A stretch of DNA of 36,935 nucleotides from a virus: the IMG/VR virus record IMGVR_UViG_3300037479_000063, positions 1-36,935 of that record. One strand, 5' to 3'. Position numbers and translations under genes: made by a program. This document shows, in pieces, positions 5,407 to 25,300 of this stretch; the stretch's first letter is position 1, and every line of letters begins with the position of its first letter. The notes below the pieces were generated by a model. It had not been told where the DNA came from and searched no databases. It saw nothing but the letters and a program-made list of their open reading frames with translations.

Positions 5407-5407
5407 A

Positions 5408-7162: not shown

Positions 7163-7175
7163 TGGGGACTTAAAC

Positions 7176-7215
7176 AAAAAAGGCAAGCACCGACCCGCAA
7201 GGTCTATGCTTGCCT
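7176..7215 (-). terminator. Intrinsic terminator-like hairpin plus U-tract upstream of the tape measure gene
   Basis: Minus strand reads AGGCAAGCA-TA-GACC-TTGCG-GGTC-GG-TGCTTGCCT followed by TTTTTTG. The inner stem-loop GACC/GGTC is shared with the element at 13334-13378. Confidence 0.65.
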
Positions 7216-11951: not shown

Positions 11952-11980
11952 GGTGTATCTCCTTTGTGAATGACTGCTTG

Positions 11981-12025
11981 GCAAACGGATCCGCCGTTTG
12001 CTTAAGCGCAGCGCAACGCGCTGCG
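11981..12025 (-). other. Tandem hairpins between the protease-scaffold and capsid genes
   Basis: gcaaacgg-atccg-ccgtttgc (11981-12001) and cgcagcgc-aac-gcgctgcg (about 12007-12025). Confidence 0.6.
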
Positions 12026-12026
12026 T

Positions 12027-13331
12027 CTATTTCAAGGCCGCGAGATCGGCCTCGGCTTGCTCCAGATCGCGCCGGTATTGCTGGCGCACCACATCGTTCG
12101 GCTCCGTGCTGGCCTGCCGGCGAAGCTCAGCTACCCGCATCTCGGCCTTCTTCAGCGCCGCCGCGCGTTGATCCACGTTAAGGTTTTGCCCCACCGCCAC
12201 GATTTTCTCGATCGCGCGCAGCACCGGCCCGCCCGGCGCCGGCTGCTTCTCAATCACTGCCACGCGCCTGTCGAGATTGGCCAGCGTGTCGGCCAGGCCC
12301 TTGAACGACGGCTCCAGCGCCTTGACGAGTGTGGTACTCCACGCCGCCATCTCCACGCCATCTTCCTGTCCACCACCGTCATACACCGCCACAATCTTGG
12401 CCGCCTGCGCGTCGCCGGCGTTCGCCAGCATCGCCGCCAGCGCCTTGATCACCGTGTGCATGCTCGACTGATTGCTCATGCTGAACATGCGCCCGGCCTT
12501 GAGCACCCACTGCCAGCGGTGGCCATCCCACTTCACCACCGCCCCGGCGCGTTTGGCCAGGTCGCCGATCCTGGCCGCCTGCGCCATCTCAGCCGTGGCT
12601 TCCGGCATCTCCTCCGGCGCGGCCTCGGCCTCGGCCGGCTTGTCCTTCGACTCGCCCGCCGCCTGCTGCACCAGCCGGATCGCGTTCGTGAATAGCTCAG
12701 CATCATCCAACTCGCCGGCTACCTCGGCGTCGTTGCGCAGTTGCTGCAACATCGCCACTACCTTGCTGGCGTCTGCCGCCTTCATAAGTTCGGCCAACTG
12801 GGTCGGGTCCATAGGTGCCTCCATCTTGAACACAAGAATTCTTGCGTCCGGGTTGGCCGGACGGTCAACGAGCGAGATCTCGGTCAGTTTCAGCGCCGTG
12901 ATCACCCGGCACATTACGCCGTTGATCTCACGCACCACGGCCTTGATGACCCTGCCGCCGATGCTGAAGCCCTTGTAGACGCCGGCCTTGACCTTCTGCC
13001 AGGCCACGTCGTCCACGACTCTCACTTTGATGTACAGGGGGTGCTCGACGAGCTTGTCGTCGATCTCAATGGCCTTATCCAGCACGCGCGCTTCGAGCGC
13101 CACGCCCACCGCGCTCGGCGCGTGCATTTCGCGGATGTTCGCCCAGGCCATGTAATCGGCCAGCGCCGCCTCGATGGCCTGCGGCTCGATCACGTCGCCA
13201 GAGTATAACTTCCCATCCAGTTCCCCCGGTTGTGAGTCGAATGTCGGCGACGAGGCGATGCCCTCGACGATGCGCTGATCTGCATCGGCCTTGGTCAGGG
13301 GCAGATAGAGAGGGAAGAGTCCGTGCGTCAT
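12027..13331 (-). CDS. Prohead protease fused to a coiled-coil scaffolding-like C-terminal domain
   Basis: N-terminal 170 aa carry HK97-family prohead protease motifs: REMH...VG, GFSIGG, LTEISLVDRPANPDA. The C-terminal 260 aa are A/E/K/Q-rich and helical (LRRQASTEPNDVVRQQYRRDLEQAEADLAALK). Lies immediately upstream of the capsid gene. Confidence 0.8.
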   Translation of the reverse strand: MTHGLFPLYLPLTKADADQRIVEGIASSPTFDSQPGELDGKLYSGDVIEPQAIEAALADYMAWANIREMHAPSAVGVALEARVLDKAIEIDDKLVEHPLYIKVRVVDDVAWQKVKAGVYKGFSIGGRVIKAVVREINGVMCRVITALKLTEISLVDRPANPDARILVFKMEAPMDPTQLAELMKAADASKVVAMLQQLRNDAEVAGELDDAELFTNAIRLVQQAAGESKDKPAEAEAAPEEMPEATAEMAQAARIGDLAKRAGAVVKWDGHRWQWVLKAGRMFSMSNQSSMHTVIKALAAMLANAGDAQAAKIVAVYDGGGQEDGVEMAAWSTTLVKALEPSFKGLADTLANLDRRVAVIEKQPAPGGPVLRAIEKIVAVGQNLNVDQRAAALKKAEMRVAELRRQASTEPNDVVRQQYRRDLEQAEADLAALK

Positions 13332-14201: not shown

Positions 14202-14249
14202 GCCAAGCGCGCAGCGCTTGGCTTAAGCTAACCGGCTTTGCCGGTTAGC
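14202..14249 (-). other. Tandem hairpins at the 3-prime end of the portal gene
   Basis: gccaagcgc-gca-gcgcttggc (14202-14222) and gctaaccgg-ctttg-ccggttagc (14227-14249). The latter overlaps the portal stop TAA at 14245-14247. Confidence 0.65.
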
Positions 14250-16404
14250 CAACCACCGGGCTGATCGCGCACCGGCAGCGCGCGTGCAGCGCCGGTCGGT
14301 GTCCGCTATCGTCCAGTGCGAACGTCTGCCCATCCAGCGGCGCGCAGATCGGGCAGACCTTGCTATCGCGCGCTGTGTGAAAGCGATAGCCCTTCACCAC
14401 CCGGCTGGCGCGCCAGGCCGCGAGGTTGCCCTCGGCGAACAGGTTGGTCACCTCGGTCACCGCCGCCACGTCCGCGCGCGGCCCGCTCCACACATGCCGC
14501 ACACGCCGGATCAGGTCCGGCAACGTGCCGCCGGTCTTGATCCAGTCTTTGATGATCCCAGCCGCCAATTGCTGGCTGGTGCCCGTGCTCTCCAGCGCGA
14601 ACCGCGCCGCGCGTTCGCTCGCCAATTTCAGCGCGGCCTCGTTGACTATATCCCACTCGACCCCGATCGCCAATTGCCCCAGACCTTCAACGGCCGCCTG
14701 GCGCGTCACTGCGTCGAAGAATGGCAGCACCGCCTGAGTGAGCGCGGCGGCCTCGGCGGCCATGATCGTCGTCAGCGCGCCCTCGAGCGCGCCCGGTTCG
14801 GCCTGCTCCAGCGCATCGGTCACCCGCCCGGCCTGCGCTTCGTACGCATCCCCGAAGACTTTTTTGGCCTGGCGCTCGCGCTTCTCGCGCGCCTCCCAGT
14901 CAGGCTCCGGGGCTGCGGCTTTTTTTTTCAATTGCTCGACCGCCGACAGCGGAAGAGTCGAAGGCTTTCCGGGCGCTGGCCCGGTCAGTACGTTGCCATA
15001 CTTCAGCGTGCGCACCTCGTCCGCGCTGATCACCCCCTCCTGCAGGTCAATCTGATATTCCTGCGCCTTGCTCAGCGCGTCATCCGTCTCGCCAAACTCC
15101 CATTGCCAGGTCAGCCCGTCAAACTGGCCGCGCACCGGCCGCGTTGGTGCGCCGGGCACAGAGATCGCCGGCGCATTGACCTGGTCTGGACTCTGCCCGA
15201 GCCGCCACGAGATCGGGTTGAAAATGCTGGCGGTGAGGAAGCGCGTCAGCGGCTTCAACCCGCGCCGCTCGTTGATCGCCTCCTGCATCTCGCTCGTCGA
15301 GCGGTTGGCGTTGTCGGTAAACCCGATTTCGGTCGGCGGCGTCCCGTACGCCGCGCACGCAATCCGCAGCAGCCAATAGTCGAGCTCCGTCTGATAACTG
15401 AAGGAGCGGAACTCCTTCACATCCATCCGCCACGGCAGGAAGTGCACGCGCCGATGCGCCTGCACGTTGCCCTGCAGGATCGCGTTGAAGTTCTCCTCGA
15501 AGCTCAGCACCTGGTCGGGGTTGAGCATCCCCTCCGGAGGCGAGGCGAAGGCCTCGGGGATATTGCCGTCGGTGAAATAGGCCAGGTCAAACGCCTGCTT
15601 GCGCAGCGCCTGGTTGACCCGCAAAATGATCCACTCGCTCGGCGGGAAGCCGTACGGCGTCCAGCTGCGCGTCCAGCGCGGCAGATAGAGCAGCTCCTCG
15701 CGCCCAAAGGTCGGAAAATCCTCGTCCGGCTGGTCGGTCCCGGGCCTCCGGTACTCGCTGTAGGGATAACCGTACAAAATCTGTTGATAGGCCAGCGTCC
15801 GCCCGCGGTCGTCCAGCAGCGGCTTGATCGTTGCCCCGTCCACCAGCTCGGCCAGGCTCAGCCGCCCGCCCCGGTCCGGGTGCAGGTAGAGAGTCATGGC
15901 GTCGATGCTGAACATGTCGTACAGCAGTGACCCCAGCCAGGCATCAAAGTGGTTGAGGCCGTCGGGGAACTGCCACCAGTCCATCAGCGCGTCGCAGTCG
16001 CCCTGGCGCGCCGCCTGCTGGCGCTTGTCCACGGACACCACGCTGCGCGTCATCCCCTGCAACTCCTCGATCCGCACCGCGATGGCGATGGCCGCCACGT
16101 CGTACAGCCCGGCCAGGTTGCGCAGCTGCTCGAACGGCGTCAGCCCGGGCTGCTCGCGCCGCGGGGTGGTGATCGTGTTCTGGCCCAGCCAGTATTGCCA
16201 CTGCCTCGGCCCCTGCGTCTGCTCGGGAGAGCCGGGCGCGCTGCGCGGGGTCAGCGGCACGCCCGGCCCGAAGTCGCGGTCCACCAGGATGCCCAGGTTG
16301 CCGCGCCGATCGCGCGACGTGGGCGCCGCCGAGGCCGGGGCCGTCGATCGCTGCGCCTCCTGGGTCAAATCTCGCACGCGCGTGCCTGCCGGGATCTTCG
16401 GCAT
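14245..16404 (-). CDS. Portal protein fused to a Mu-F / SPP1-gp7-like head morphogenesis domain
   Basis: 719 aa from ATG 16404 (GGAGG 7 nt upstream, TGATG overlap). The large N-terminal part has portal-like size and position. The C-terminal 200 aa carry ...RADVAAVTEVTNLFAEGNLAAW...GYRFHTARDSKVCPICAPLDGQTF...PALHARCRCAI, the characteristic minor-head-protein motif (C-x2-C ... H-x-x-C-R-C). Confidence 0.8.
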   Translation of the reverse strand: MPKIPAGTRVRDLTQEAQRSTAPASAAPTSRDRRGNLGILVDRDFGPGVPLTPRSAPGSPEQTQGPRQWQYWLGQNTITTPRREQPGLTPFEQLRNLAGLYDVAAIAIAVRIEELQGMTRSVVSVDKRQQAARQGDCDALMDWWQFPDGLNHFDAWLGSLLYDMFSIDAMTLYLHPDRGGRLSLAELVDGATIKPLLDDRGRTLAYQQILYGYPYSEYRRPGTDQPDEDFPTFGREELLYLPRWTRSWTPYGFPPSEWIILRVNQALRKQAFDLAYFTDGNIPEAFASPPEGMLNPDQVLSFEENFNAILQGNVQAHRRVHFLPWRMDVKEFRSFSYQTELDYWLLRIACAAYGTPPTEIGFTDNANRSTSEMQEAINERRGLKPLTRFLTASIFNPISWRLGQSPDQVNAPAISVPGAPTRPVRGQFDGLTWQWEFGETDDALSKAQEYQIDLQEGVISADEVRTLKYGNVLTGPAPGKPSTLPLSAVEQLKKKAAAPEPDWEAREKRERQAKKVFGDAYEAQAGRVTDALEQAEPGALEGALTTIMAAEAAALTQAVLPFFDAVTRQAAVEGLGQLAIGVEWDIVNEAALKLASERAARFALESTGTSQQLAAGIIKDWIKTGGTLPDLIRRVRHVWSGPRADVAAVTEVTNLFAEGNLAAWRASRVVKGYRFHTARDSKVCPICAPLDGQTFALDDSGHRPALHARCRCAISPVVG

Positions 16405-16733
16405 CAGATCGCCTCCAGCACCGACCACTGCTCGAGGATCGAGCGCTCCACGCTGCCGTCCAGGAACGTGACAATGAACTGCACCAGGTAACGATTGCCC
16501 GCCGTGGCCACCTCTGCGGCGCCGTAAGCCCAATCGAATTGCCCGCCCGTCAGCGGCGACGCCGGCGTATAAGAGCCGTCGCCGTTCATCGTCGCGCCCG
16601 TGCTCTCGTTACGAATGCGGCAGGTGATGGTCTGCACATTCGTCAGATCCACCACCCCCGAGCCATCCTCGCGCTCGAAGGTCACCCGCTGGCCGGTGTG
16701 CCGGCTGTTCTGGATCGCTCTCGCCAATGGCAT
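16404..16733 (-). CDS. Small beta-sandwich-like virion protein candidate
   Basis: 109 aa from ATG 16733 (TAATG overlap). The pattern VTFEREDGSGVVDLTNVQTITCRIRN...GGQFDWAYGAAEVATAGNRYLVQFIVTFLDG resembles Ig-like phage structural domains. Confidence 0.6.
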   Translation of the reverse strand: MPLARAIQNSRHTGQRVTFEREDGSGVVDLTNVQTITCRIRNESTGATMNGDGSYTPASPLTGGQFDWAYGAAEVATAGNRYLVQFIVTFLDGSVERSILEQWSVLEAI

Positions 16734-18058
16734 TATGGACTCCGAATGATGCTGCCGCTGCTGCCCGGCGCGTTCATGTCTCCGCTCGCGCCCGGCGTCC
16801 TGGCCTGGCCCCTCGCCGCCGGCGCGCACATCCGCCCGAGGGCGGCCACGGCGCGGGCAAACCCGTTACGTCCTGCCGCGAAGATCGTGCCCGTCGTCAG
16901 CGCGATTTGGATGGCCGCCGGCTCCAACCACGCGCCGACGAAATACAGTGCGGCCAGGTCGGGCTCGTCGTCGGACGGTGCTTCCACCCACGCCGACACC
17001 GGAGACTCTTCTACCGGTGGCTCTTCCACTGCCGGCGCGAAGAAGGCCAGCACCAGCGCATCGCCCTCCTCGCCGGCATCGGGCACATCCGCCCACAGGC
17101 TGGCCGGCGACTCTGCTTCACTCAGGGCCGCCGCATGCCACTGCGCCAGCAGCGAGTCGTCGTCGGCAGCGTCATCGGATTCGGCAACCGCCAGCCTGAA
17201 GATCGTCTCAGGCTCTTCCAGCGCGCCGAACTGGTAGAACGTCAGAGCCTGTCCGTCATCGTCATCATCGGGCAGGTCAGCCGCCAGAGAAACCGGCTGT
17301 TCCTCCGCCACCACATCGGCCTGCGCCGGAGTCCACGCCCAGCCAGTGATCGAGATGTCGTCATCCGCATCGAAGATCGGCGTGGCATCCACCACCCCAG
17401 CCGGCTCGTCGGCGGCCGGCTCCTCCGCCGGCCCATGCGCCCAATCGGCGGCCGCTTCAATGTCTTCGGCGGAGAGTTCAATCGCCGCCACCGCCGCCGG
17501 CAGTTCCTCGAGCGCGGGCAGCGCCACGTCCACCCACACCGGCGCGTCATCGTCATCCGCTACATCCGCTACCGCATCCGCTGCCGCCGCGCCGATCTGA
17601 TCTTCTTCGACGAGCGCAAACGCCCAGGTCGGCTCATCGCCTTCCAGCGCATCGGCCAGGTCCCAGGCCGGCCCGAATGCCGGCGACTCTTCCGCCGCCG
17701 GCTCATCGACGAGCGCAAACGCCCAGGTCGGCTCATCGCCTTCCAGCGCATCGGCCAGGTCCCAGGCCGGCCCGAATGCCGGCGACTCTTCCGCCGCCGG
17801 CTCATCGACGAGGAAATGAGTCCAGTCGGCGAGCTGCTCGATCTCCAACTCCTGATCGAACAGCGCCGCCGGCAGCGCCAGATCATCCGCCAGCGCCTCC
17901 CCTGCCCCGCCGACCCAGAATGCCAGCAGCGACGTGGGGCCGCCCTGCGCCGTGTCGCCGATCGGCAGCGGCGGCGACGGGTCGTGCGCACCGATAGCCG
18001 GTTGCCATTGACTCTGGCTCGGTAATCGCCCGCCCGCACCGCCGAAGATCAGCCGCAT
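16733..18058 (-). CDS. Highly acidic D/E/A/P/W-rich repeat protein (441 aa), function unknown
   Basis: ATG 18058. Contains an exact 33-aa tandem duplication, FALVDEPAAEESPAFGPAWDLADALEGDEPTWA twice. Many acidic-Trp motifs and almost no basic residues after the first 12 aa. Confidence 0.7.
   Translation of the reverse strand: MRLIFGGAGGRLPSQSQWQPAIGAHDPSPPLPIGDTAQGGPTSLLAFWVGGAGEALADDLALPAALFDQELEIEQLADWTHFLVDEPAAEESPAFGPAWDLADALEGDEPTWAFALVDEPAAEESPAFGPAWDLADALEGDEPTWAFALVEEDQIGAAAADAVADVADDDDAPVWVDVALPALEELPAAVAAIELSAEDIEAAADWAHGPAEEPAADEPAGVVDATPIFDADDDISITGWAWTPAQADVVAEEQPVSLAADLPDDDDDGQALTFYQFGALEEPETIFRLAVAESDDAADDDSLLAQWHAAALSEAESPASLWADVPDAGEEGDALVLAFFAPAVEEPPVEESPVSAWVEAPSDDEPDLAALYFVGAWLEPAAIQIALTTGTIFAAGRNGFARAVAALGRMCAPAARGQARTPGASGDMNAPGSSGSIIRSP
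17606..17803. repeat. Perfect 99-bp tandem duplication (2 copies, with a few further bases at 17804)
   Basis: tcgacgagcgcaaacgcccaggtcggctcatcgccttccagcgcatcggccaggtcccaggccggcccgaatgccggcgactcttccgccgccggctca appears at 17606 and again at 17705. In frame within the acidic protein gene. Confidence 0.95.
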
Positions 18059-18061
18059 GGC

Positions 18062-19087
18062 CTAACCTCGCACCGTAGTGAATGAGCCGTTGTACGTCGT
18101 GGCCGATGTAGAGGGCTTCGATACTTCCAGAAACGCCAGACAGGCATCGTCGAACACGCGCGCCAGGTTGAATGCGCTGTTGATCCCGTCGAACACACAC
18201 ACCAGATTGGCCACCGGGCACGGCATCCAGGCCAGCGGGTGCCCGATCACGAAGTCCACCGCTCCGGTGGCCACCGCCGCCGAGCACTGCATCTGGGTCA
18301 GCGTGCGGATGCCTCTATCGCCGCTCGCCAACGGCGCGAACCACTGGCTGGTCGGGTGATCTAGGCGGTTGACGATCGCGCCCGAGTTGCCCGTCAGCGA
18401 CGGCAACGTGGAGGCGTTGCCAGCCTCATCCGTGTACAGGCATGTCGTCCAATTGTGCGCGGTCGAGGCCAGCGCCGTGCCCACCTCGACGAACAAGAAA
18501 TTTCCCTCGGCGCTGTTCTCCTGCCCCTGCGTCGTGCTCTGATAGCGGCTAGGCGTGCCCGTCACCGCCTCGGTGGCCGTCGAGTTCATGGTCTTGGAAA
18601 CTGCAAAGAGTCGGTCGTAGAGCAGTAGCGTATTGCCCGCCACGCTCGCCAGCGGGAAACCACTCACCAGGTGCTGTGTATCGCCTGAGGCGGGATTGTC
18701 AAAATTGAAGGCCCCGGTGGTCGAATCTGTGGGCGCAGTGCCCCCCGGCGCGGCCGCGGCGGCCGCGCCCGCCACAGGCTGATTGCCCACCCGCCATAGG
18801 CTGTTGGTGCCCGCCGCCACTCCCGTCGTGCCGATCTTCTGAAACGGGAACTCGCGCCGCCCACCCTGTGTGGCGGACGCAATCAGGTCGCTGAGGTTGG
18901 CAAACGACCCGCCCCGGATCGCGCCAAAGAAATCTCCCTTGTAGGCATAGACCTTTCCCGGCACGTTCCCGATCGGGATGTGCCAGTAGAAGTCGCGCAT
19001 GGCCGCGCTCAGGGCCGTCACCTGATCGGCGCCCAGCCAGCGCTCCAGCCGGGCAGCGTGCGTTGAAGGCTTGCGTAACAGGTTCAT
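18062..19087 (-). CDS. Hypothetical protein (341 aa), structural candidate
   Basis: ATG 19087 overlaps the upstream stop (ATGA). A/G/T/S-rich and beta-rich. I recognise no motif. Confidence 0.65.
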   Translation of the reverse strand: MNLLRKPSTHAARLERWLGADQVTALSAAMRDFYWHIPIGNVPGKVYAYKGDFFGAIRGGSFANLSDLIASATQGGRREFPFQKIGTTGVAAGTNSLWRVGNQPVAGAAAAAAPGGTAPTDSTTGAFNFDNPASGDTQHLVSGFPLASVAGNTLLLYDRLFAVSKTMNSTATEAVTGTPSRYQSTTQGQENSAEGNFLFVEVGTALASTAHNWTTCLYTDEAGNASTLPSLTGNSGAIVNRLDHPTSQWFAPLASGDRGIRTLTQMQCSAAVATGAVDFVIGHPLAWMPCPVANLVCVFDGINSAFNLARVFDDACLAFLEVSKPSTSATTYNGSFTTVRG

Positions 19088-19626
19088 GAGGGATCGCTCT
19101 GCGTGATCGGATTGGCTCCGGCGGTGTTGGTCAGCTCGCTGGTCCAGGCGGTTGTCGTATCGTTCTCGGCATACACCGTCAGGCTGCCCGCGCTGATGTT
19201 CCAGCGGTTGCGCAGGAAGCGCAGCGCGTTGAGTACGCTGCGCCCCGCCTCACCGGTCAGGCCCGTCCAGTCCAGCTTGAGCAGGCCCATCCAGTTCCCC
19301 CTCTGGAACTCCATTGTGAAGTGGGCGATCACATAGCCCACCACGCTGTTGCCGCCCACTGTGCCGGCCGTGATCACCACCTGGTACTTCCGCCCGGCCT
19401 GGTAATTGCTATCGGCCGAGGTGTCGATGCGCACATGGTTGAGACCGGTGACAGAGTCGAAGTCCACCGTCAGCGTCACGCCGGCGGTGATCTGCGCGGT
19501 GTTGTTGTCGTAATAGACCGCCACCGCTGGCGATCCGGCCAGCTGCGTCGGGACGCCGCTCCCGTTCACCGTCGTGAACTTCAGGTCGATGAGATCATTC
19601 TTGGCGTAGTCGCCCAGTTGCGTCAT
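19084..19626 (-). CDS. Hypothetical protein (180 aa) with Ig-like N-terminal pattern
   Basis: ATG 19626 (ATGA overlap). DLIDLKFTTVNGSGVPTQLAG...YQAGRKYQVVITAGTVGG, then LDWTGLTGEAGRSVLNALRFLRNRWNISAGSLTVYAENDTT, a pattern I associate with phage fibre or virion accessory proteins. Confidence 0.65.
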   Translation of the reverse strand: MTQLGDYAKNDLIDLKFTTVNGSGVPTQLAGSPAVAVYYDNNTAQITAGVTLTVDFDSVTGLNHVRIDTSADSNYQAGRKYQVVITAGTVGGNSVVGYVIAHFTMEFQRGNWMGLLKLDWTGLTGEAGRSVLNALRFLRNRWNISAGSLTVYAENDTTTAWTSELTNTAGANPITQSDPS

Positions 19627-20294
19627 GCCTGCACCATCTGATTGCGCCTGCCGGCCAGCAGCATCCCCCAGCCCGACGCCGAGATCAAGTCATCAACGCT
19701 CAGGTTATCGACCCAGGCCGAACGGCTGGTCTCGCCGCCTTCGCAATACGCGCCCAGGCCCGGCACACCGCTCGTCAGCCGGCTCGCGTCAGTGTCGGAG
19801 TAAGTGAGTGTTGTGGTGGCCGCCACCTGAAACTCAAGATCCACCTGCGCGCCGGTTCCTGTCGCGCGCAACCGGAATGCTCGCGTTCCCGCGCCCGTCA
19901 GGCCGCGGTCTGCGCTGGCCAGCAAAATGCCCGATCCGGCCACGCGCCGATATAGAGTCACCTCGTTGGCCGATCCCATCTCCAGCCAGCCTTCGTAGTC
20001 GGTGTCGGCGCCGCTCGCCATCCGCACACACGCCAGCCCGGTCGAAAATCCGCTGCCGTTCGGCTGGGCGCTGTCGAGCGTGATCTCCTGATCTCCGTTC
20101 GGTACTGCCGCATCAATGATCCGTGCGCGGTGCTCGGCATTATCATTGGCCGCGCCTACGCGGTCGTCGGCGGCCACCACCAGCAGCATGCTGCCGCTGC
20201 CGGCGTTGTAGGCGTAGTCGGGGCTGCCCGATGGGTAAGCGTCGATATTGATGTCCGACGCCACCGTGAAGCTATCGGTGAAGACCACTGTCAT
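19623..20294 (-). CDS. Hypothetical protein (223 aa), lectin/jelly-roll-like composition
   Basis: ATG 20294 (ATGA overlap). Beta-rich, with FTDSFT...DAYP near the N-terminus and WVDNLSVDDL near the C-terminus, reminiscent of concanavalin-like folds. Weak call. Confidence 0.6.
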   Translation of the reverse strand: MTVVFTDSFTVASDINIDAYPSGSPDYAYNAGSGSMLLVVAADDRVGAANDNAEHRARIIDAAVPNGDQEITLDSAQPNGSGFSTGLACVRMASGADTDYEGWLEMGSANEVTLYRRVAGSGILLASADRGLTGAGTRAFRLRATGTGAQVDLEFQVAATTTLTYSDTDASRLTSGVPGLGAYCEGGETSRSAWVDNLSVDDLISASGWGMLLAGRRNQMVQA

Positions 20295-20695
20295 AGCCCG
20301 AAGCTCCGCGCCAGTTGATGCTGCCAGTCATCAGTTCGCCCGCCGCCCACCGGCTGCGCCGCCCGCTCGAAGAGTGTGCGCACCGTGTCATCCGCACGCA
20401 CCGGCACGTCCAGCGCGATCATATAGTCATCGATGACCGCGCGCAGACCCGCGCCGATGGTGGCTAGGCGCTGGTCCGCTTCGGACTCCGGCACTGCCAG
20501 CAGGCCCGGCTCGGCATTGAGCGCCACGACCTGCGCCGCGCTCGCCTCACAGACGCCCACGGCGCGCTCGCCGCCGATGATCCACGTCGCTGGGAAGCTG
20601 CCCGCCGGCCCGTTGCGCACCAGCTCGATTACCGGGATGCGATAGCCCGGCCGGCGCGGATGCGGCACGACCGCGCATACGAACAGCAGCCGCAT
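20291..20695 (-). CDS. Hypothetical protein (134 aa)
   Basis: ATG 20695 (TAATG overlap with the upstream gene). Confidence 0.6.
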   Translation of the reverse strand: MRLLFVCAVVPHPRRPGYRIPVIELVRNGPAGSFPATWIIGGERAVGVCEASAAQVVALNAEPGLLAVPESEADQRLATIGAGLRAVIDDYMIALDVPVRADDTVRTLFERAAQPVGGGRTDDWQHQLARSFGL

Positions 20696-21135
20696 TAGAA
20701 GTCTTCTTCGGTCTCGACCGTGATCGTCGCGTTGCCCGTGCCGATGCTGGGCCGGATGGAGATCTGCTCCGCGTTGCGGAACTCGAGCTCGTCGCCTCGG
20801 ATCGCCGCCCAGCGGTAGATCGAGCCGTTCTGGTTGAAGCCTAGCCGCACCGGTGTGCCGGTGTCCAGCGTCGGCTGCGCCGCCCAGGTCGTATTGGCCG
20901 TGACGGCCGCCGCCGGCGCATCGCTGCTCTTGCGCTGCGGAGTCAGTGCGCCGCCGCCCGTGGTGCCGCCCGTCGAGCGGCTGGCCACGATCTCCATCGC
21001 CTGGCCGGTCGTGCCCATGCCCTGAATCTCGATGCTCAGGATGCGCGCCCGCCGGTTGGCCGCGGCGATGAATGTGATCAAGTCGTTGGCTGTGTTCAAC
21101 GCAACGTTTGACCGTGAGTACGTGTACTTGCCCAT
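20695..21135 (-). CDS. Hypothetical protein (146 aa), beta-rich
   Basis: GAGGAG lies 6 nt upstream of ATG 21135. MGKYTYSRSNVALNTANDLITF...ITVETEEDF. Confidence 0.65.
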   Translation of the reverse strand: MGKYTYSRSNVALNTANDLITFIAAANRRARILSIEIQGMGTTGQAMEIVASRSTGGTTGGGALTPQRKSSDAPAAAVTANTTWAAQPTLDTGTPVRLGFNQNGSIYRWAAIRGDELEFRNAEQISIRPSIGTGNATITVETEEDF

Positions 21136-21168
21136 TGGGTTCTCCTCTGTGAATGACTCACGCGCCGG

Positions 21169-21384
21169 CTATTCCGCCGGCGCGGTGACCGACTTGCGCA
21201 TCTCCAGGCTGCACGCCCGGCAGTTGTGCGCGCGGGCCTCGGCGTTGTACGTGCCGGCCTCGATCTGCGCCACCACCTCAGCCTCGAACGACGCGCCGGC
21301 ATGGTAAGCCGCTCCGGCTACGTTCTTCGGCTTCTCAAATTCCGGGCAGCCCTTGTTCGTGCAGTGGAAGTAAACGGATTTCAT
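21169..21384 (-). CDS. Small zinc-ribbon-like protein (71 aa)
   Basis: ATG 21384 overlaps the terL stop (ATGA). Cys pairs C-x4-C (CTNKGC) and C-x2-C (CRAC). Confidence 0.6.
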   Translation of the reverse strand: MKSVYFHCTNKGCPEFEKPKNVAGAAYHAGASFEAEVVAQIEAGTYNAEARAHNCRACSLEMRKSVTAPAE

Positions 21385-22829
21385 TGCGGTTGTCCTTTCT
21401 GACTCTTCATCGCCTCCGCCCGTTGGCGGTAGTGCTTCATAATGCCCGCCGCCGGCGTGCGGCTCGCCGCCAGCGCCAGCGCGTAACTATCGGCCCGGTC
21501 ATCGTGCTGCCCCTCCGGCGCGCGCAACGTCGAGCCATCAATACTCGCCAGTTGCGTGTACGTCTCGAAGCTGTGCAGCACCGTCGCCCCATCGCGGAAG
21601 CTCTCCGCCGCTCCGTCGTAGAGCAGCGCCTTGCCCTTCGCGTTGCTCAACCAGCCGGGCTTGCCATCCCAGCCCGGCAAGAGAGTCAGCGGCGAATTGC
21701 CGCCCAGCCACAGCAGCACCGCGTGTCCATGATTGTTGCGTTCGCACATCACCGCCGCGTTGTTGTAGTGGCGGCCAATCGCGTCGGCGTGCGCGCCCAG
21801 CGTCGCCGGCTGGAACTTCCCCGCCAGCGCCGCCACTTCCTCGTCTGTTTCGGCGTCGAGCATGGTCAACGCGCTGTCGTCGCTGCCCGGGTTGCCCTCC
21901 GCCGGGTCTGCGCCAATCACATACGTGCGCCCCGGCTCGGGCGCTTTATAGATCTTCAGCCCGGCAATCGCCGGCACACCCTCGGGTGTGATCGCCGGGA
22001 CAACTTGATAGCACCGCTCCAGCCAGTCCGGGGCGATGCGCTTGTCCAGCGTGCGTGGGCTGAGCGCCTCCGTGTCGGTCGCCGGATACTGCTCATGCAG
22101 CTCATCCTCGCTGCCCGTGCGCGCCATGATCTCGCGCCGCAGCGCCGCATACCAGTCCGGAGTGCGACCCGGCCGGGAATGCCAGGGCAGGAAGACCGGC
22201 TCCCAGCCCGTTTGGCCGCTCCTGGCTGCCCGGTACACGCGCTTGAACTCGCTCTCCGGCTGGCCCTTGTCCGCGCGGCTGAGTAGCAGCAACTGCCCGC
22301 CGGCGTCAATCGTCGGTTTCACGGCCGCCAACAGCCGCCCGAGGTCGGGTACCAGGTCGGCCTCATCCACCACCGCCACCGTGCCCGTGTACGTGTCGCC
22401 GCCCGTCGTCGGGAAGGCCAGCGCCATCGAGCCGTTGCTCAACCGCCACTCATGCTTGCTGTCAGCCAGTTCGGCCTGCGCTTGCAGCCAGACCGGCAGC
22501 CGCCGATACATGCCTTTCAGCCGGAAGTCCAGCAGATGCACCGACTCATCGTCGCGCTTGCTGAATAGCAGCGCCGTCGCCGCCGGGCGAAAGACCATCA
22601 GCCACAGCACATAGCCCAGCAGCAGCCAGGTCAGCCCAAGCTGCCGGGCCTTCAACATAATGACCCACCGATTGTTAAGGATCGTGCGCAACGTGGCCGC
22701 CTGCGCCGGCCACAACTCGAATGCCAGCCAGGCCCGCGTCGTCGCGTCATACACCTGCCCGTAGCGGTCCAGAAAGTACAGCGGACTCTCCGCGCAGGTC
22801 AGCCACTCAAGTTCCTGTTCCGGCGTCAT
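21381..22829 (-). CDS. terL: Terminase large subunit
   Basis: 482 aa. N-terminal ATPase region with Walker-A-like KARQLGLT and Walker-B-like AVVDEAD. C-terminal nuclease-like half (YVIGADPAEG...). Preceded by an overlapping small-terminase-like gene. Confidence 0.9.
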   Translation of the reverse strand: MTPEQELEWLTCAESPLYFLDRYGQVYDATTRAWLAFELWPAQAATLRTILNNRWVIMLKARQLGLTWLLLGYVLWLMVFRPAATALLFSKRDDESVHLLDFRLKGMYRRLPVWLQAQAELADSKHEWRLSNGSMALAFPTTGGDTYTGTVAVVDEADLVPDLGRLLAAVKPTIDAGGQLLLLSRADKGQPESEFKRVYRAARSGQTGWEPVFLPWHSRPGRTPDWYAALRREIMARTGSEDELHEQYPATDTEALSPRTLDKRIAPDWLERCYQVVPAITPEGVPAIAGLKIYKAPEPGRTYVIGADPAEGNPGSDDSALTMLDAETDEEVAALAGKFQPATLGAHADAIGRHYNNAAVMCERNNHGHAVLLWLGGNSPLTLLPGWDGKPGWLSNAKGKALLYDGAAESFRDGATVLHSFETYTQLASIDGSTLRAPEGQHDDRADSYALALAASRTPAAGIMKHYRQRAEAMKSQKGQPQ

Positions 22830-23448: not shown

Positions 23449-23679
23449 TCACTCCGCCGCCCAATGGCTCTCGAGCCGTTGTTTGAAAAACTCCGCCGCC
23501 GCCTTCAACTCGCGGTAGCGGTCGTGCCGGCGCTTCATCGCCACGCCGCCGCCGTACTGCTTGTAGACATTGTGGTCGAAGGCCATCTCCTGCGCCTGCG
23601 TGTCCAGCGCCTCGATGGCCAGTTGCAGCGCCTTCTGCTCCGAGATCGCAGTGGCAGCCGCCCTCTGCCTTCCGGTCAT
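23449..23679 (-). CDS. Small hypothetical protein (76 aa)
   Basis: ATG 23679 overlaps the upstream stop (ATGA). Helical composition. Confidence 0.55.
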   Translation of the reverse strand: MTGRQRAAATAISEQKALQLAIEALDTQAQEMAFDHNVYKQYGGGVAMKRRHDRYRELKAAAEFFKQRLESHWAAE

Positions 23680-24764
23680 GTCCCCGCCTGCATCCAGAAT
23701 GCCGGCGTGCGGTCGCGGCGCGTCAGCCGCCACCAGCCGTCGCGCATCTCGAACACATCGATCATCCACGTCACCCGCCGCTGCATCGCATAGCGTTGCC
23801 GGTCGGGCGCGAAGTACAGCGAAAACATCTTATTGTTGCCGTGGAAGCTGAACAGCGGCTCCTCGAACTGAGGCAGCGGGCGCGTGCCGGCCGTCGCCTG
23901 GCCGTGGGCGATCAACGGGGGGAGAAAATCTCGCTCGCCATCCACGTTGAACGGTTGCCAGTCGTGGTTGCCGCCGGTGCCGAAGGTATAAATCGCCGCG
24001 CATTCCACGCGCGGGTACGAGTGCAGCACCTGATCCCATTGAATGAGATCGAGCGCATACGCCGCCGCCGTCAGACCCGGGCGCGAGCGCCATGGCGGCA
24101 GGTCATAACCCGCTTCCGTGATCCAGATCGGAACGGGCATATTATGCTCGTTCTGCACTTCGATGAGTGTGTTGAGGGGATGCTCCCAGCCGGCCACCGA
24201 GTGATAGGCGTGGAGGTGCACGCGGCCACCGGTCTCGCGCAGCGCCCGCAGCACCGGCACGTAGACGCGCCAGGCCGCGCACTGCTGCTCACGGCTGCCG
24301 CTCGGGTTGCCCACCCCCATCCCACCGGCCATCGGCAGGAAGCCGGCCTGATGGATCTTCCAGATCTGATAGACCTCGAAGGCTGCACGCTGGCGCAGAT
24401 CATCCAGATCAGCCGGCTGCAGATCGTCGGGCACGCCGGGCAGGTTTTGTTTTTGGGTGTCCTCGTTCAAGCCGGTCGTCCAGAAGCGCACCTGCCGGTT
24501 GCCCGGATGCAGCACGTGCGGGGCCAGGTGAGTGAGCCAATACGTATCCGGGTCGTGCACATACGCCCGCCATTTGTTGTCGTGATGCGGGGCGCTGTCG
24601 CCGTTGAGGAAGACCCGGCCCGCAATCATCGGCTTCGGGGTCAGCTCGGCATAGGCCGCCGACTCTCCGTACGCGGCCACCAGGAACACACCCGGCGCCT
24701 TGCCCTCGCGGGTGAACTCGAACGCCGATTGGCTCTGCCCCATGTGGTGGGCGATAAGCTTCAT
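23676..24764 (-). CDS. Clan GH-A (TIM-barrel) glycoside hydrolase; lysin or depolymerase candidate
   Basis: 362 aa from ATG 24764 (ATGA overlap). TTGLNED (Asn-Glu acid/base type motif) and PIWITEAGYD (nucleophile-Glu type motif) are spaced about 135 aa apart, consistent with beta-4/beta-7 placement. Follows two membrane protein genes. Confidence 0.65.
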   Translation of the reverse strand: MKLIAHHMGQSQSAFEFTREGKAPGVFLVAAYGESAAYAELTPKPMIAGRVFLNGDSAPHHDNKWRAYVHDPDTYWLTHLAPHVLHPGNRQVRFWTTGLNEDTQKQNLPGVPDDLQPADLDDLRQRAAFEVYQIWKIHQAGFLPMAGGMGVGNPSGSREQQCAAWRVYVPVLRALRETGGRVHLHAYHSVAGWEHPLNTLIEVQNEHNMPVPIWITEAGYDLPPWRSRPGLTAAAYALDLIQWDQVLHSYPRVECAAIYTFGTGGNHDWQPFNVDGERDFLPPLIAHGQATAGTRPLPQFEEPLFSFHGNNKMFSLYFAPDRQRYAMQRRVTWMIDVFEMRDGWWRLTRRDRTPAFWMQAGT

Positions 24765-25300
24765 GTCAGCGTCCCCGTTCCCTCCGGCCTCCAGACCGGC
24801 TTCACGTTGAGATCTGTCTCCAACTGATTGATCAGCAGTCCAATTCCGGCGTTGAGTTTCAACCGCTGCTCGGTCAGGTAGTCGATGCGGCGCTGAGATT
24901 CGACCCACTTCAAGCGCAAATCGTCGCGTTCGGCTGTCAGGCGACGCTCGGCCGTTTCCAAGTCCTCGATGCGCCGCACATTGTTGCGCTGCGTCTGCTC
25001 CACCATCTGGCGCGCCCGGCGTTCATGCTCCAGTTCCCTGCTCAAGTTCTCGCGCGCCATGCGTTCGCTGATCAAGTCGGCCCGCACCTCCGCCAGCTCC
25101 GTGTCGCTCTCGTCGAGCCGGCGTCGGTACTCGGTCAAAATCTGCGTTGTGCTTTCCGTGGCGCTATTGAGAGCGGCGGCAATGTCCACCAGAGTCTGCG
25201 ACCGGGTGCGACGCGCCTGGATCCATGCGCCGCCCCACGCCGAGACCAGCGCGATCACAGAGATGAGGACGCCTTCGGGGATCGTCACCGGGATGCCCAC
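24761..25300 (-). CDS. N-terminally membrane-anchored coiled-coil protein (lysis accessory candidate)
   Basis: GTG 25300 (alternative GTG 25288). The TM segment VLISVIALVSAWGGAWI is followed by about 140 aa of E/R/L-rich heptads. Lies between the holin-like and hydrolase genes. Confidence 0.55.
   Translation of the reverse strand: MGIPVTIPEGVLISVIALVSAWGGAWIQARRTRSQTLVDIAAALNSATESTTQILTEYRRRLDESDTELAEVRADLISERMARENLSRELEHERRARQMVEQTQRNNVRRIEDLETAERRLTAERDDLRLKWVESQRRIDYLTEQRLKLNAGIGLLINQLETDLNVKPVWRPEGTGTLT

What the first reader, a model, noticed from the sequence alone, without database searches (positions are those of the whole stretch)
16404..21384. Eight translationally coupled genes of unknown function between terminase and portal
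TerL (21381-22829) is normally followed directly by the portal gene. Here about 5 kb and eight ORFs lie between them.

- **Content.** A 71-aa zinc-ribbon protein, 146-, 134-, 223-, 180- and 341-aa beta-rich proteins, a 441-aa hyper-acidic repeat protein and a 109-aa Ig-like protein.
- **Coupling.** Seven of the nine junctions overlap as ATGA or TAATG/TGATG, and the 18058-18062 junction leaves a 3-nt gap. Only the 20695-21135 gene has a 33-nt gap with its own GAGGAG RBS. The cassette is therefore co-expressed with packaging and head genes rather than being an independently expressed moron.
- **Recognition.** I recognise none of them as a standard head or packaging component.
- **Possible roles.** Head fibres or decoration, ejection or pilot proteins packaged with DNA, a second receptor-binding module, or a virion-delivered counter-defence set.
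Basis: partly seen in the sequence, partly recalled or inferred. Interest (0 to 1): 0.68.

Follow-up and report, generated by a model that had tools for sequence, protein, structure and literature searches.

The report
Accessory virion-fibre cassette before portal
The eight unknown genes wedged between the terminase and portal genes of this phage are real. They most likely encode an extra set of fibres on the virus particle, of the recently described "collar, rope and beads" kind, built partly from two protein families nobody has characterised.

Summary
Eight coding ORFs (16404-21384, minus strand) lie between TerL and a portal-MuF fusion, with seven of nine junctions overlapping. In nine of ten TerL relatives the portal gene follows TerL directly, so this is an insertion.

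None of the eight proteins hits Pfam, PHROGs, NCBIfam or PDB sequences. Synteny gives the lead.

- **Core trio.** The 341-aa protein belongs to a family of more than 2,500 unannotated proteins. Its model is a jelly-roll (pLDDT 85). In unrelated phage backbones it is nearly always followed by a repeat protein with a conserved N-terminal W-x-P…DPxxPxLPLE motif (here the acidic 441-aa protein), then by a small Ig-like protein (here 109 aa).
- **Link to GP4.** In other phages the flanking genes are Pfam Gp80 and Gp77, the bead and Ig-like collar of Ralstonia podophage GP4 fibre I. That fibre is bead dimers strung on a "rope" protein anchored to a collar.
- **Second sub-module.** The 146/134/223/180-aa genes recur elsewhere beside rope-plus-Ig pairs: after the capsid gene, after the tail tip genes, or next to terminase or portal.

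Best reading: a mobile accessory fibre or adhesin module, probably at the neck. The window's own proteins fail the Gp80 and Gp77 sequence tests, so this is a new variant of a known kind, not a member. The location on the virion is inferred, not shown.

The parts
21169..21384 (-). g71, a 71-aa putative zinc-ribbon protein whose start overlaps the TerL stop (ATGA). Its role is unknown and it may not belong to the fibre module.
   Evidence: ORF; junction; two Cys pairs (HCTNKGC...NCRAC) read from the sequence. There is no family hit and no homologue in the fetched loci. Small ORFs between TerL and portal are common in the other loci examined.
20695..21135 (-). g146, a compact eight-stranded jelly-roll protein. 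It is the only gene in the cassette with its own spacer (33 nt) and a GAGGAG ribosome-binding site.
   Evidence: The AF2 model has pLDDT 92.1 and is all-beta. Foldseek against the PDB gives only generic jelly-roll matches at E 6e-4 to 7e-3: picornavirus VP2, nucleoplasmin, TNF-like proteins, exosporium BxpB/ExsFA and the phage KHP40 trimeric cement protein. GP4 gp80 is not among them. It has 59 homologues, all unannotated. A homologue lies within 4 kb upstream of g341 in 8 of 51 loci. Homologues also lie beside rope-plus-Ig pairs in L046 and L047.
20291..20695 (-). g134, a small protein of unknown fold that travels with g223.
   Evidence: g134-like and g223-like genes are adjacent in L043: phmmer E 1.2e-5 and tblastn E 1.2e-7. 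Genes of the same size and N-terminal pattern occupy this position in L046 and L048, judged by reading the sequences.
19623..20294 (-). g223, a protein with a conserved C-terminal tail (…DDL-x-A-x-G…RN…). Its fold was not determined.
   Evidence: It is 51 % identical to L043 3283-3942. A profile search against the PDB found nothing. My impression of a concanavalin/LamG-like domain is untested.
19084..19626 (-). g180, a fibre-type protein. It has a conserved N-terminal domain of about 105 aa and a conserved C-terminal segment of about 50 aa. Relatives carry a middle insert of variable length.
   Evidence: It has 402 homologues of 180-314 aa. Many match only the N-terminal ~58 % of the query, at 55-67 % identity. 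The C-terminal motif (…R-x-x-L-N-A-L-R-x-L-R-N…TVY-x-E-D/N-D…W…) is shared by the L048, L049 and L050 proteins. Relatives sit next to a Pfam Gp80 gene and a repeat protein in L050, and next to bead, rope and Ig-like genes directly upstream of the portal gene in L049.
18062..19087 (-). g341, a jelly-roll protein from a very large uncharacterised phage family. I infer that it is the partner of the N-terminal peptide of the rope protein.
   Evidence: It has 2,524 homologues at E<=1e-5, typically 60-70 % identical, none with a Pfam domain or a name. The AF2 model has pLDDT 85.2 and pTM 0.77. PDB matches are weak: tetravirus, birnavirus and nodavirus capsid jelly-rolls at E 5e-4 to 1e-2 and probability <=0.28. 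BFVD matches are strong but only to uncharacterised 'uncultured Caudovirales' proteins. The gene occurs in unrelated head modules.
16733..18058 (-). g441, the 'rope' candidate. It has a conserved 40-aa N-terminal motif (…QWQPAIGAHDPSPPLPIGD…) followed by acidic repeats, each containing a Trp.
   Evidence: D+E is 20.4 % and pI 4.05. The best internal period is 33 aa, with self-identity 0.23 against <=0.154 in shuffles. The gene after g341 carries the same N-terminal motif in 24 of 51 loci, 12 of them not used to build the motif model. Among 5,610 ORFs searched the motif model hit only genes next to g341. The rest of the protein varies freely in the family: length 234-1530 aa and pI 4-11.7, usually with repeats of 20-23 aa.
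17607..17812 (.). A perfect 99-bp tandem duplication (2.1 copies) inside g441, giving two identical 33-aa repeat units.
   Evidence: Tandem Repeats Finder reports 100 % matches and score 412.
16404..16733 (-). g109, an Ig-like protein and the candidate collar or anchor subunit. It overlaps the rope stop (TAATG) and the portal start (TGATG).
   Evidence: It has 143 representatives at E<=1e-3. Most are stand-alone proteins of about 105 aa. Some form the N-terminal domain of 230-300-aa proteins. 13 of 90 relatives hit Pfam BppU_N, and others hit Rib, Invasin_D3 or Big domains. The profile hits an Ig-like surface-protein domain in the PDB at E 3e-4. hhalign against the Gp77 family gives probability 0.4, so they are not detectably homologous. 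g109-like proteins follow the rope gene in L019, L041 and L055, and weakly in L046 and L047.
21381..22829 (-). Large terminase subunit, the upstream flank.
   Evidence: PHROG phrog_2 at E 1.6e-25; 12 relatives at 55-69 % identity.
14245..16404 (-). Portal protein fused to a C-terminal MuF-like domain, the downstream flank.
   Evidence: Pfam Phage_portal at E 3.8e-11 and Phage_Mu_F at E 2.3e-10; PHROG phrog_2662 at E 3.3e-58. The start at the TGATG overlap was read.

Best explanation
The cassette is a mobile accessory virion-fibre module of the 'collar, rope and bead' kind known from Ralstonia podophage GP4 fibre I and the collar/whisker complex of the Escherichia myophage Bas63 (genus Felixounavirus). 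It is inserted into the packaging/head operon of a siphophage.

**Core trio: g341, g441, g109.**
- g109 is a small Ig-like protein. I infer that it forms or joins a ring or anchor on the particle, most likely around the neck next to the portal and adaptor.
- g441 is an extended 'rope'. I infer that its C-terminal end is held by the Ig-like protein, and that its repeats act as docking segments or a flexible stalk.
- g341 is a jelly-roll protein. I infer that it binds the conserved N-terminal peptide of the rope. It would act either as the distal head of the fibre or as a short trimeric base like GP4 fibre II.

**Second sub-module: g146, g134, g223, g180.** This supplies further fibre parts:
- a compact jelly-roll;
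- two proteins of unknown fold;
- a fibre protein with conserved ends and a variable middle.

The likely function is reversible adhesion to host-surface or environmental polysaccharide, in addition to the tail-tip receptor-binding proteins.

**Shown:** the genes are real and co-transcribed. The g341, rope and Ig-like gene order is conserved across unrelated phages. GP4 fibre I components flank the homologous modules. The fold classes of g146, g341 and g109 are established.

**Inferred:** all physical interactions, stoichiometry, position on the virion and the adhesion function.
For: 1. **Insertion.** The portal gene follows TerL directly in nine of ten TerL relatives, and none of them carries cassette homologues.

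2. **The g341 family is large and mobile.** It has more than 2,500 members and sits in unrelated head modules: portal PHROGs 156, 145 and 2662, and capsid PHROGs 334, 283 and 13692. It is usually between the portal and the scaffold or capsid genes. It lies upstream of TerL in L017 and between TerL and the portal here.

3. **The gene after g341 is a repeat protein.** It carries a conserved N-terminal motif in 24 of 51 loci, 12 of them independent of the motif model, and in the search of 5,610 ORFs the model hit no ORF that is not next to g341. The rest of the protein is hypervariable and usually has a 20-23-aa period. GP4 gp79 lies between gp80 and gp77, is repetitive and has a best period of 20 aa.

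4. **GP4 components flank the homologous modules.** In 14 of 51 g341 loci the neighbours are Pfam PF23140 (GP4 fibre I protein gp80, upstream) and/or PF23148 (GP4 fibre-tail adaptor gp77, after the repeat protein). Pfam E-values reach 1e-16 and 6e-25. PDB 8JOU holds ten gp80 chains and three gp77 chains.

5. **Published structure.** The GP4 collar is Ig-like. The rope is a separate protein that interlocks with the collar, and bead dimers wrap around it. In Bas63 the rope is the N-terminal extension of the Ig-like collar protein. That matches the rope-then-Ig gene order seen here (PMC12609058).

6. **g109 is Ig-like.** BppU_N is hit in 13 of 90 relatives. g109 is translationally coupled to the rope gene. 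g109-like proteins follow the rope gene in other loci.

7. **Cassette genes recur beside rope-plus-Ig pairs in other places.** These are after the tail host-specificity protein in L046, after the capsid gene in L047, directly upstream of the portal gene in L049, and next to Gp80 in L050.
Against: - **No window protein matches the GP4 families by sequence.** There is no Pfam Gp80 or Gp77 hit for any of the eight. hhalign of the g109 family against the Gp77 family gives probability 0.4. BLASTP against GP4 gp74-gp83 finds nothing below E 0.05.
- **g146 is not gp80-like.** It is a complete jelly-roll with no N-terminal helix, unlike the 'incomplete sandwich' bead. Foldseek did not retrieve 8JOU. 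The window therefore has no identified bead.
- **g341 has no counterpart in GP4.** No solved structure resembles it convincingly.
- **The gp79 assignment is my inference.** That gp79 is the GP4 rope rests on gene order and repetitiveness. The primary paper could not be read, and gp79 and gp78 are not in the PDB by sequence.
- **Position on the virion is untested.** The same gene sets also occur after capsid genes and after tail-tip genes, so genome position does not tell where they attach.
Confidence: 0.6

Rival explanations
1. Capsid decoration or head fibres. The jelly-roll proteins g146 and g341 would bind the capsid lattice as cement or decoration trimers, and the repeat protein and g180 would project from the head surface.
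For: - The cassette sits among head genes and is translationally coupled to them.
- A g146 homologue follows the capsid gene directly in L047, and g134/g223 homologues lie between the capsid and adaptor genes in L043.
- The Foldseek list for g146 includes the trimeric cement protein of phage KHP40 (7dou, E 4.6e-3, probability 0.80).
- The top PDB hits for g341 are viral capsid jelly-rolls.
- PHROG labels Gp80-type neighbours 'head protein' (phrog_240) and other neighbours 'virion structural protein' (phrog_3758).
Against: - g341 keeps 50-70 % identity across phages whose capsid proteins belong to unrelated PHROGs (334, 283, 13692). That is hard to reconcile with lattice-specific cementing.
- The annotated neighbours of the homologous modules, Gp80 and Gp77, are located at the neck and tail in the solved GP4 structure, not on the capsid.
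- The fold matches are generic jelly-roll hits with weak scores.
Confidence: 0.2
2. Side tail fibres or baseplate appendages. The Ig-like g109 would dock on the distal tail ring, as the BppU N-terminal domain does in lactococcal phage TP901-1. The other proteins would form lateral receptor-binding fibres at the tail tip.
For: - 13 of 90 g109 relatives hit Pfam BppU_N, best E 2.6e-5.
- In L046 a gene set of Gp80-like, g146-like, g134-like, g223-like, rope and Ig-like genes follows the tail host-specificity protein directly. That is the usual site for side fibres.
- Some database records annotate Gp77-family proteins as 'minor tail protein'.
Against: - In the window the cassette is separated from the tail-tip genes (1837-7186) by the whole head and connector module.
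- g109 itself does not reach any BppU_N threshold.
- In the two solved systems cited here that combine a rope with Ig-like subunits, the Ig-like ring is at the neck.
Confidence: 0.12
3. Packaged internal, ejection or counter-defence proteins. For example, the hyper-acidic g441 would act as a DNA mimic delivered with the genome.
For: - g441 has pI 4.05 and 20 % D+E.
- The cassette is adjacent to the portal-MuF gene, and MuF proteins can carry packaged toxin domains. One example is the MuF protein of L034, which also matches phrog_3895, ADP-ribosyltransferase exoenzyme toxin (E 4.4e-5).
Against: - Acidity is not a family property. Proteins in the same position with the same N-terminal motif have pI from 4 to 11.7, and include Ser/Pro-rich and basic versions.
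- The folds of the partner proteins (jelly-roll, Ig-like) and the Gp80/Gp77 neighbours point to external structures.
- These proteins were not scanned against the PADLOC defence-protein library, so homology to known defence-system proteins was not tested.
Confidence: 0.05

Closest known systems
Ralstonia podophage GP4 fibre I system: gp80 bead (Pfam PF23140), gp77 Ig-like fibre-tail adaptor (PF23148) and a 'rope' protein. Source: PDB 8JOU; Zheng et al., J Mol Biol 2023, known to me from memory and through citing papers, not read here.
   Same: - Both have a co-directional, tightly coupled gene string containing a small beta-protein, a repetitive 'rope' and a ~100-aa Ig-like protein.
- In other phages, true homologues of gp80 and gp77 flank homologues of the window's g341 and g441.
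- The rope gene lies upstream of the Ig-like gene in both; they are adjacent in the window, with gp78 between them in GP4.
   Different: - No window protein is detectably homologous to gp77-gp80.
- GP4 has no g341, g146, g180, g223 or g134 homologue.
- GP4 has a 568-aa gp78 between the rope candidate and the collar.
- GP4 is a podophage and its module lies among tail genes. The window is a siphophage with the module between TerL and the portal.
Collar/whisker complex of the Escherichia myophage Bas63 (genus Felixounavirus) (PMC12609058)
   Same: - An Ig-like collar ring sits around the connector.
- A rope segment carries bead-like dimers.
- The rope lies N-terminal to the Ig domain in one polypeptide, which matches the rope-then-Ig gene order here.
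- The authors suggest that the whiskers anchor the head-tail junction and may transiently anchor virions to host LPS.
   Different: - In Bas63 the rope is a short extension of the collar protein carrying two whisker dimers. Here it is a separate 441-aa acidic repeat protein.
Anabaena myophage A-1(L) neck fibres: a gp5 pentadecamer plus gp82, gp81 and gp80 bead chains (PMC10966104)
   Same: These are accessory fibres attached at the neck. They are built from several small beta-rich proteins encoded in one operon, with a distal carbohydrate-binding module. The distal carbohydrate-binding module showed no binding to the host, so the authors doubt a role in primary host recognition.
   Different: The beads are trimers stacked head to tail without a rope. 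No homology to the window proteins was detected or tested. g146 gave only a weak match to the CBD of the A-1(L) short tail fibre (8ke9, E 5e-3).
BppU N-terminal Ig-like domain of lactococcal phage TP901-1 (Pfam PF10651)
   Same: The g109 family is Ig-like, and 13 of 90 members hit BppU_N. From general knowledge of TP901-1, this domain anchors peripheral receptor-binding assemblies onto a ring-shaped core structure.
   Different: g109 is a stand-alone 109-aa protein, is not at the tail-tip locus, and does not itself reach significance against BppU_N.

Membership tests
GP4-type fibre I system (collar, rope and bead) | A bead protein of Pfam family PF23140 (Gp80) | tested here: not met
   None of the eight window proteins hits PF23140 at E<=0.1. 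A local Gp80-family HMM run with --max gives E>=0.23. The g146 model is a complete jelly-roll and Foldseek did not retrieve 8JOU.
GP4-type fibre I system (collar, rope and bead) | An Ig-like collar or fibre-tail adaptor of Pfam family PF23148 (Gp77) | tested here: not met
   g109 does not hit PF23148. None of 90 g109 relatives hits it. hhalign of the g109 family against the Gp77 family gives probability 0.4 and E 0.13. g109 is nevertheless Ig-like.
GP4-type fibre I system (collar, rope and bead) | A separate, elongated, repetitive 'rope' protein encoded next to the collar gene | tested here: met
   g441 is repetitive: period 33 aa, self-identity 0.23 against <=0.154 in shuffles, and a perfect 99-bp duplication. 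Its stop overlaps the g109 start. This is a resemblance in architecture. No sequence homology to GP4 gp79 was found.
GP4-type fibre I system (collar, rope and bead) | Homologous modules elsewhere contain bona fide Gp80 and Gp77 genes | tested here: met
   14 of 51 independent g341 loci carry Gp80 and/or Gp77 family genes in the neighbourhood of g341 (within 4 kb upstream to 5 kb downstream), usually in the order Gp80, g341, rope, Gp77.
GP4-type fibre I system (collar, rope and bead) | A ring assembled around the adaptor at the portal vertex, with beads threaded on the rope | not testable with these tools
   This needs cryo-EM of particles, or at least multimer structure prediction. Only monomer predictions were available, and both were used.
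g341 family (unnamed, uncharacterised phage jelly-roll proteins) | Full-length homology, including the invariant HNWTTC-x-Y, RLDHP-x-x-x-W-F-A-P-L and GHP-x-x-W-M-P-C-P blocks | tested here: met
   There are 2,524 hits at E<=1e-5. The top hits are 60-72 % identical over at least 94 % of the query. The invariant columns are listed.
g341-associated rope proteins | The N-terminal W-x-P…D-P-x-x-P-x-L-P-L-E motif, in a gene immediately downstream of g341 | tested here: met
   Residues 1-40 of g441 match the motif model at E 9e-14, but g441 was one of the 12 seeds. Twelve non-seed proteins in the MAG contig loci L057-L071 match, each immediately after g341.
BppU_N (PF10651) Ig-like anchoring domain | A significant match to the Pfam model | tested here: inconclusive
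   g109 itself has no hit at E<=0.05. 13 of 90 family members hit, best E 2.6e-5.
Phage capsid cement or decoration jelly-roll proteins (e.g. KHP40 cement) | Specific structural similarity beyond the generic jelly-roll, and capsid binding | tested here: inconclusive
   g146 against 7dou_4 gives E 4.6e-3 and TM 0.30-0.34, ranked 23rd among generic jelly-roll hits. Capsid binding cannot be tested here.

The most novel reading that the evidence does not exclude
The g341 family, with its dedicated N-terminal rope peptide, may define a previously unrecognised and very widespread type of virion appendage. It has thousands of members, found so far only in uncultured phages and in MAG contigs labelled mostly Pseudomonadota.

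In this reading a rope-tethered jelly-roll head is exchanged as a cassette among sipho- and podophage head modules. The g341 fold would be genuinely related to the capsid jelly-rolls of nodaviruses, tetraviruses and birnaviruses, so a capsid-type protein would have been exapted as a fibre head. The window would then be the first case of such a collar-and-rope apparatus on a siphophage, encoded between TerL and the portal.
Probability: 0.15. Interest if true: 0.75.

Novelty: new variant of a known kind. Interest (0 to 1): 0.5.

Why it matters
- **A working hypothesis for unannotated families.** The result links four sizeable protein families with no annotation to a structurally defined apparatus, the collar, rope and bead fibres. 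The g341 family has more than 2,500 members, g180 about 400, g109 about 140 representatives and g146 about 60. Thousands of metagenomic phage genes gain a testable function.
- **Modular exchange.** The accessory fibre cassettes move between unrelated head, neck and tail contexts. They are found after TerL, after the portal, after the capsid gene and after the tail tip genes. This matters for predicting host range and for phage engineering.
- **A sharp, testable prediction.** The conserved 40-residue N-terminus of the rope should bind g341. The hypervariable repeats should set fibre length or bead number.
- **Limits.** This is not a new category of biology, and the function (adhesion) is inferred.

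Tried and rejected
- **Family searches.** Pfam, PHROGs and NCBIfam found nothing for any of the eight proteins. The PADLOC library was not searched.
- **DNA similarity.** The cassette plus TerL has no match in 50,697 phage genomes.
- **PDB sequence and profile searches.** g341, g223, g180, the g223 family and the g341 family gave nothing meaningful.
- **Viral-contig scans.** Scans for g146 and g180 found no relatives, and the g223 scan found one.
- **g341 as a second major capsid protein.** I considered this because it sits where the capsid gene is expected in some loci. I rejected it because those loci have their own HK97-type capsid genes downstream and g341 is a jelly-roll.
- **g341 as an enzyme.** It has many invariant His, Cys and Asp residues. 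Foldseek gave no enzyme match, so this is not excluded but has no support.
- **g146 as the Gp80-type bead.** Rejected by the structure model and by the HMM. L056 also carries both a g146-type and a Gp80-type gene.
- **g109 as a diverged Gp77.** Not supported by hhalign.
- **g441 as a DNA mimic.** Disfavoured because acidity is not conserved in its family.
- **GP4 primary paper.** It could not be retrieved. GP4 gp78 and gp79 are not in the PDB by sequence. Which GP4 gene encodes the rope and which encodes fibre II is therefore my inference.

Full report
**1. The observation**

The window is a complete 36,935-bp metagenomic contig (one search lists it as the longest contig carrying g146). It has high G+C. 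Its late genes read on the minus strand in this order:
- a possible small terminase;
- TerL (21381-22829);
- eight ORFs;
- a portal fused to a MuF domain (14245-16404);
- a protease/scaffold fusion;
- a 527-aa capsid candidate;
- an adaptor, a tape measure protein and minor tail proteins.

It is therefore a siphophage.

Seven junctions overlap (ATGA, TAATG or TGATG). One leaves a 3-nt gap. One leaves a 33-nt gap preceded by GAGGAG.

GC3 is 0.78-0.89 for every ORF, the same as the flanking head genes. No promoter-like site falls between TerL and the portal gene, and the one terminator-like match (22781-22793) lies inside the TerL coding sequence. Six of the eight ORFs have homologues elsewhere. 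The genes are real and are expressed as part of the packaging/head operon.

**2. The placement is unusual**

Twelve viral contigs encode TerL at 55-69 % identity. In the ten with downstream sequence examined, a portal-sized gene follows TerL directly. Nine of those genes hit portal PHROGs, three of them the same PHROG as the window's portal. None carries a homologue of any cassette gene. The cassette is an insertion relative to the nearest relatives.

**3. No direct annotation**

Pfam, PHROGs and NCBIfam give nothing for the eight proteins. PDB sequence and profile searches give nothing either. The DNA has no match among 50,697 phage genomes.

**4. The g341, g441, g109 core**

g341 belongs to a very large unannotated family: 2,524 hits at E<=1e-5, commonly 60-70 % identical, with no Pfam domain and no name.
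- Its AlphaFold model (pLDDT 85) is a jelly-roll with a short N-terminal helical region.
- The PDB offers only weak matches to tetravirus, birnavirus and nodavirus capsid jelly-rolls (E 5e-4 and above, probability <=0.28).
- BFVD gives strong matches only to uncharacterised proteins of uncultured tailed phages.

The family is mobile. It occurs in contigs whose terminase, portal and capsid genes belong to unrelated PHROGs. It usually lies between the portal (or MuF) gene and the scaffold or capsid genes. In L017 it lies upstream of TerL, and in the window it lies between TerL and the portal. In the species-representative genome collection it was found only on MAG contigs labelled mostly Pseudomonadota, one of them a 447-kb contig of a Burkholderiales MAG (L063), so probably a prophage.

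The gene after g341 is nearly always a protein with two features.
- It has a conserved N-terminal segment of about 40 residues, consensus W-x-P…(H)D-P-x-x-P-x-L-P-L-E.
- The remainder is hypervariable and repetitive: 234-1530 aa, pI from 4 to 11.7, and acidic, Ser/Pro-rich or basic in composition. It often has a 20-23-residue period.

A motif model built from 12 of these proteins then found 12 further cases in independently fetched genome loci. Each lay 40-130 nt downstream of g341. In the search of 5,610 ORFs the model hit only genes next to g341. The window's g441 has the motif, acidic Trp-containing repeats and a perfect 99-bp duplication.

The repeat protein is in turn followed by a small beta-protein of about 90-130 aa. 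In the window this is g109. Its family is Ig-like: 13 of 90 relatives hit BppU_N, and others hit Rib, Invasin_D3 or Big domains. A PDB profile search hits an Ig-like surface-protein domain.

**5. The link to a known apparatus**

In other phages, the small protein upstream of g341 is often a member of Pfam PF23140, 'Podophage GP4 fiber I protein gp80'. The small protein after the repeat protein is often PF23148, 'Podophage GP4 fiber-tail adaptor protein gp77'. With local HMMs, 14 of 51 independent g341 loci carry one or both near g341. Many loci are truncated, so this is a lower bound.

In the GP4 genome, gp80 (140 aa), gp79 (325 aa, repetitive, best period 20), gp78 (568 aa) and gp77 (93 aa) are consecutive and overlapping. 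PDB 8JOU contains ten gp80 chains and three gp77 chains.

According to a paper that analyses the GP4 structure, GP4 has an Ig-like collar and an independent 'rope' protein that interlocks with it. Five fibre-I dimers are strung on the rope. In the myophage Bas63 the rope is the N-terminal extension of the Ig-like collar protein, and whisker dimers wrap around it 'like beads on a string' (PMC12609058). The rope-then-Ig order in that polypeptide matches the rope-then-Ig gene order here.

Accessory neck fibres built from several small proteins are also documented for the myophage A-1(L) (PMC10966104).

**6. The g146, g134, g223, g180 sub-module**

g146 is a compact eight-stranded jelly-roll (pLDDT 92). 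Its fold matches are generic: picornavirus VP2, nucleoplasmin, TNF-like proteins, exosporium proteins and the KHP40 cement protein. It is not Gp80-like.

g180 has a conserved N-terminal domain and a conserved C-terminal segment. Its 402 relatives carry a middle insert of variable length, which is the pattern of a fibre with fixed attachment ends.

These genes recur with rope-plus-Ig pairs at different genomic sites:

| Locus | Position | Gene order |
|---|---|---|
| L046 | After the tail host-specificity protein | Gp80-like, g146-like, g134-like, g223-like, an 11-aa-repeat rope, g109-like Ig |
| L047 | After the capsid gene | g146-like, a 794-aa protein with acidic Trp repeats much like g441, a protein with a g109-like N-terminus |
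| L048 | Just upstream of the terminase genes | g134-like, g223-like, g180-like |
| L049 | Directly upstream of the portal gene | g180-like, a small protein, an 877-aa repeat protein, a 105-aa protein |
| L050 | Among the late structural genes, downstream of the portal and adaptor genes | g180-like, Pfam Gp80, an 828-aa repeat protein |

L049 is the closest parallel to the window.

**7. Interpretation**

The best-supported reading is a mobile accessory fibre module of the collar, rope and bead kind.
- g109 would be the Ig-like anchoring subunit.
- g441 would be the rope.
- g341 would be the jelly-roll partner of the rope's conserved N-terminal peptide.
- g146, g134, g223 and g180 would be additional fibre parts.

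The strict pairing of g341 with the motif is my basis for predicting a direct g341-peptide interaction. The motif was not seen in the N-termini of the ropes that lack a neighbouring g341 (GP4 gp79 and the L046, L047, L049 and L050 proteins).

Whether g341 is the distal head of the fibre or a proximal base like GP4 fibre II cannot be decided here. Attachment at the neck is favoured by analogy and by the adjacency to the portal gene. It is not shown.

**8. Membership versus resemblance**

The window's own proteins fail the sequence tests for Gp80 and Gp77. g341 and g146 have no counterpart in GP4. I therefore do not file the cassette as a member of the GP4 families. It works like them by architecture and by the company its homologues keep.

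**9. Rival explanations**

- **Capsid decoration.** The position among head genes and the weak cement-protein match support it. The high conservation of g341 across unrelated capsid lineages argues against it.
- **Side tail fibres.** The BppU_N signal and the context of L046 support it. The distance from the tail-tip genes in the window argues against it.
- **Packaged counter-defence proteins.** The acidity of g441 supports it. That acidity is not conserved in the family.

**10. Verdict**

Of its four candidate roles, the 'second receptor-binding or fibre module' fits best.
- Novelty: a new variant of a known kind.
- Interest is moderate. The cassette gives a testable functional hypothesis for several large unannotated phage protein families and illustrates cassette-like exchange of virion appendages. 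It is not a new category of system, and every physical interaction remains to be demonstrated.

Noticed in passing
window 14245-16404 (-): The portal protein carries a C-terminal Phage_Mu_F domain in the same ORF (Pfam Phage_portal at residues 256-509 and Phage_Mu_F at 665-757 of the 762-aa ORF). In most phages these are two separate genes. L008 has the same fusion.
   Followed up: partly
window 17607-17812: A perfect 99-bp tandem duplication (2.1 copies, 100 % identity) lies inside the acidic repeat gene. It implies a very recent change in repeat number, consistent with rapid length evolution of the rope.
   Followed up: partly
window 12027-13331 (-) and 10401-11984 (-): A 434-aa head-maturation protease appears fused to a scaffold-like C-terminal half (phrog_80, phrog_21715). 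The 527-aa protein after it is the presumed major capsid protein, but it hits only a PHROG of 'unknown function' (phrog_13692, E 2e-84).
   Followed up: no
window 23676-24908 (-): A 410-aa ORF upstream of the putative small terminase has no PHROG hit. It has a 31 %-identical relative upstream of TerL in L005. Its function was not examined.
   Followed up: no
L018 6360-8648, L030 10001-12226, L028 7534-11074: Some phages carry two g341 paralogues, tandem in L018 and L030 and about 1.6 kb apart in L028 (37-51 % identical to the query). This suggests diversification of this component.
   Followed up: no
L034 4069-6030: The MuF-like head morphogenesis protein (653 aa) also matches phrog_3895, ADP-ribosyltransferase exoenzyme toxin (E 4.4e-5), at residues 550-647. 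It lies a few genes upstream of the g341 module.
   Followed up: no
L049 8327-10000: A 557-aa protein with a weak Lipase_GDSL_2 match lies immediately upstream of the g180-like fibre gene in the module that precedes the portal gene. It may be a virion-associated esterase or deacetylase of the kind found on some phage fibres.
   Followed up: no
window 19623-20294 (-) and homologues (alignment A5): g223 and the genes in the same position elsewhere share a conserved C-terminal tail (…DDL-x-A-x-G-x-x-x-L…RN…). It looks like a docking peptide.
   Followed up: no
L051-L073: In a collection of one genome per bacterial species, g341 relatives were found only on MAG contigs, labelled mostly Pseudomonadota (Burkholderiales, several alphaproteobacterial families, Lysobacterales/Rhodanobacteraceae) but also Planctomycetota, Actinomycetota, Verrucomicrobiota and Chloroflexota. 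None came from a cultured isolate, which may explain why the family is unannotated.
   Followed up: partly
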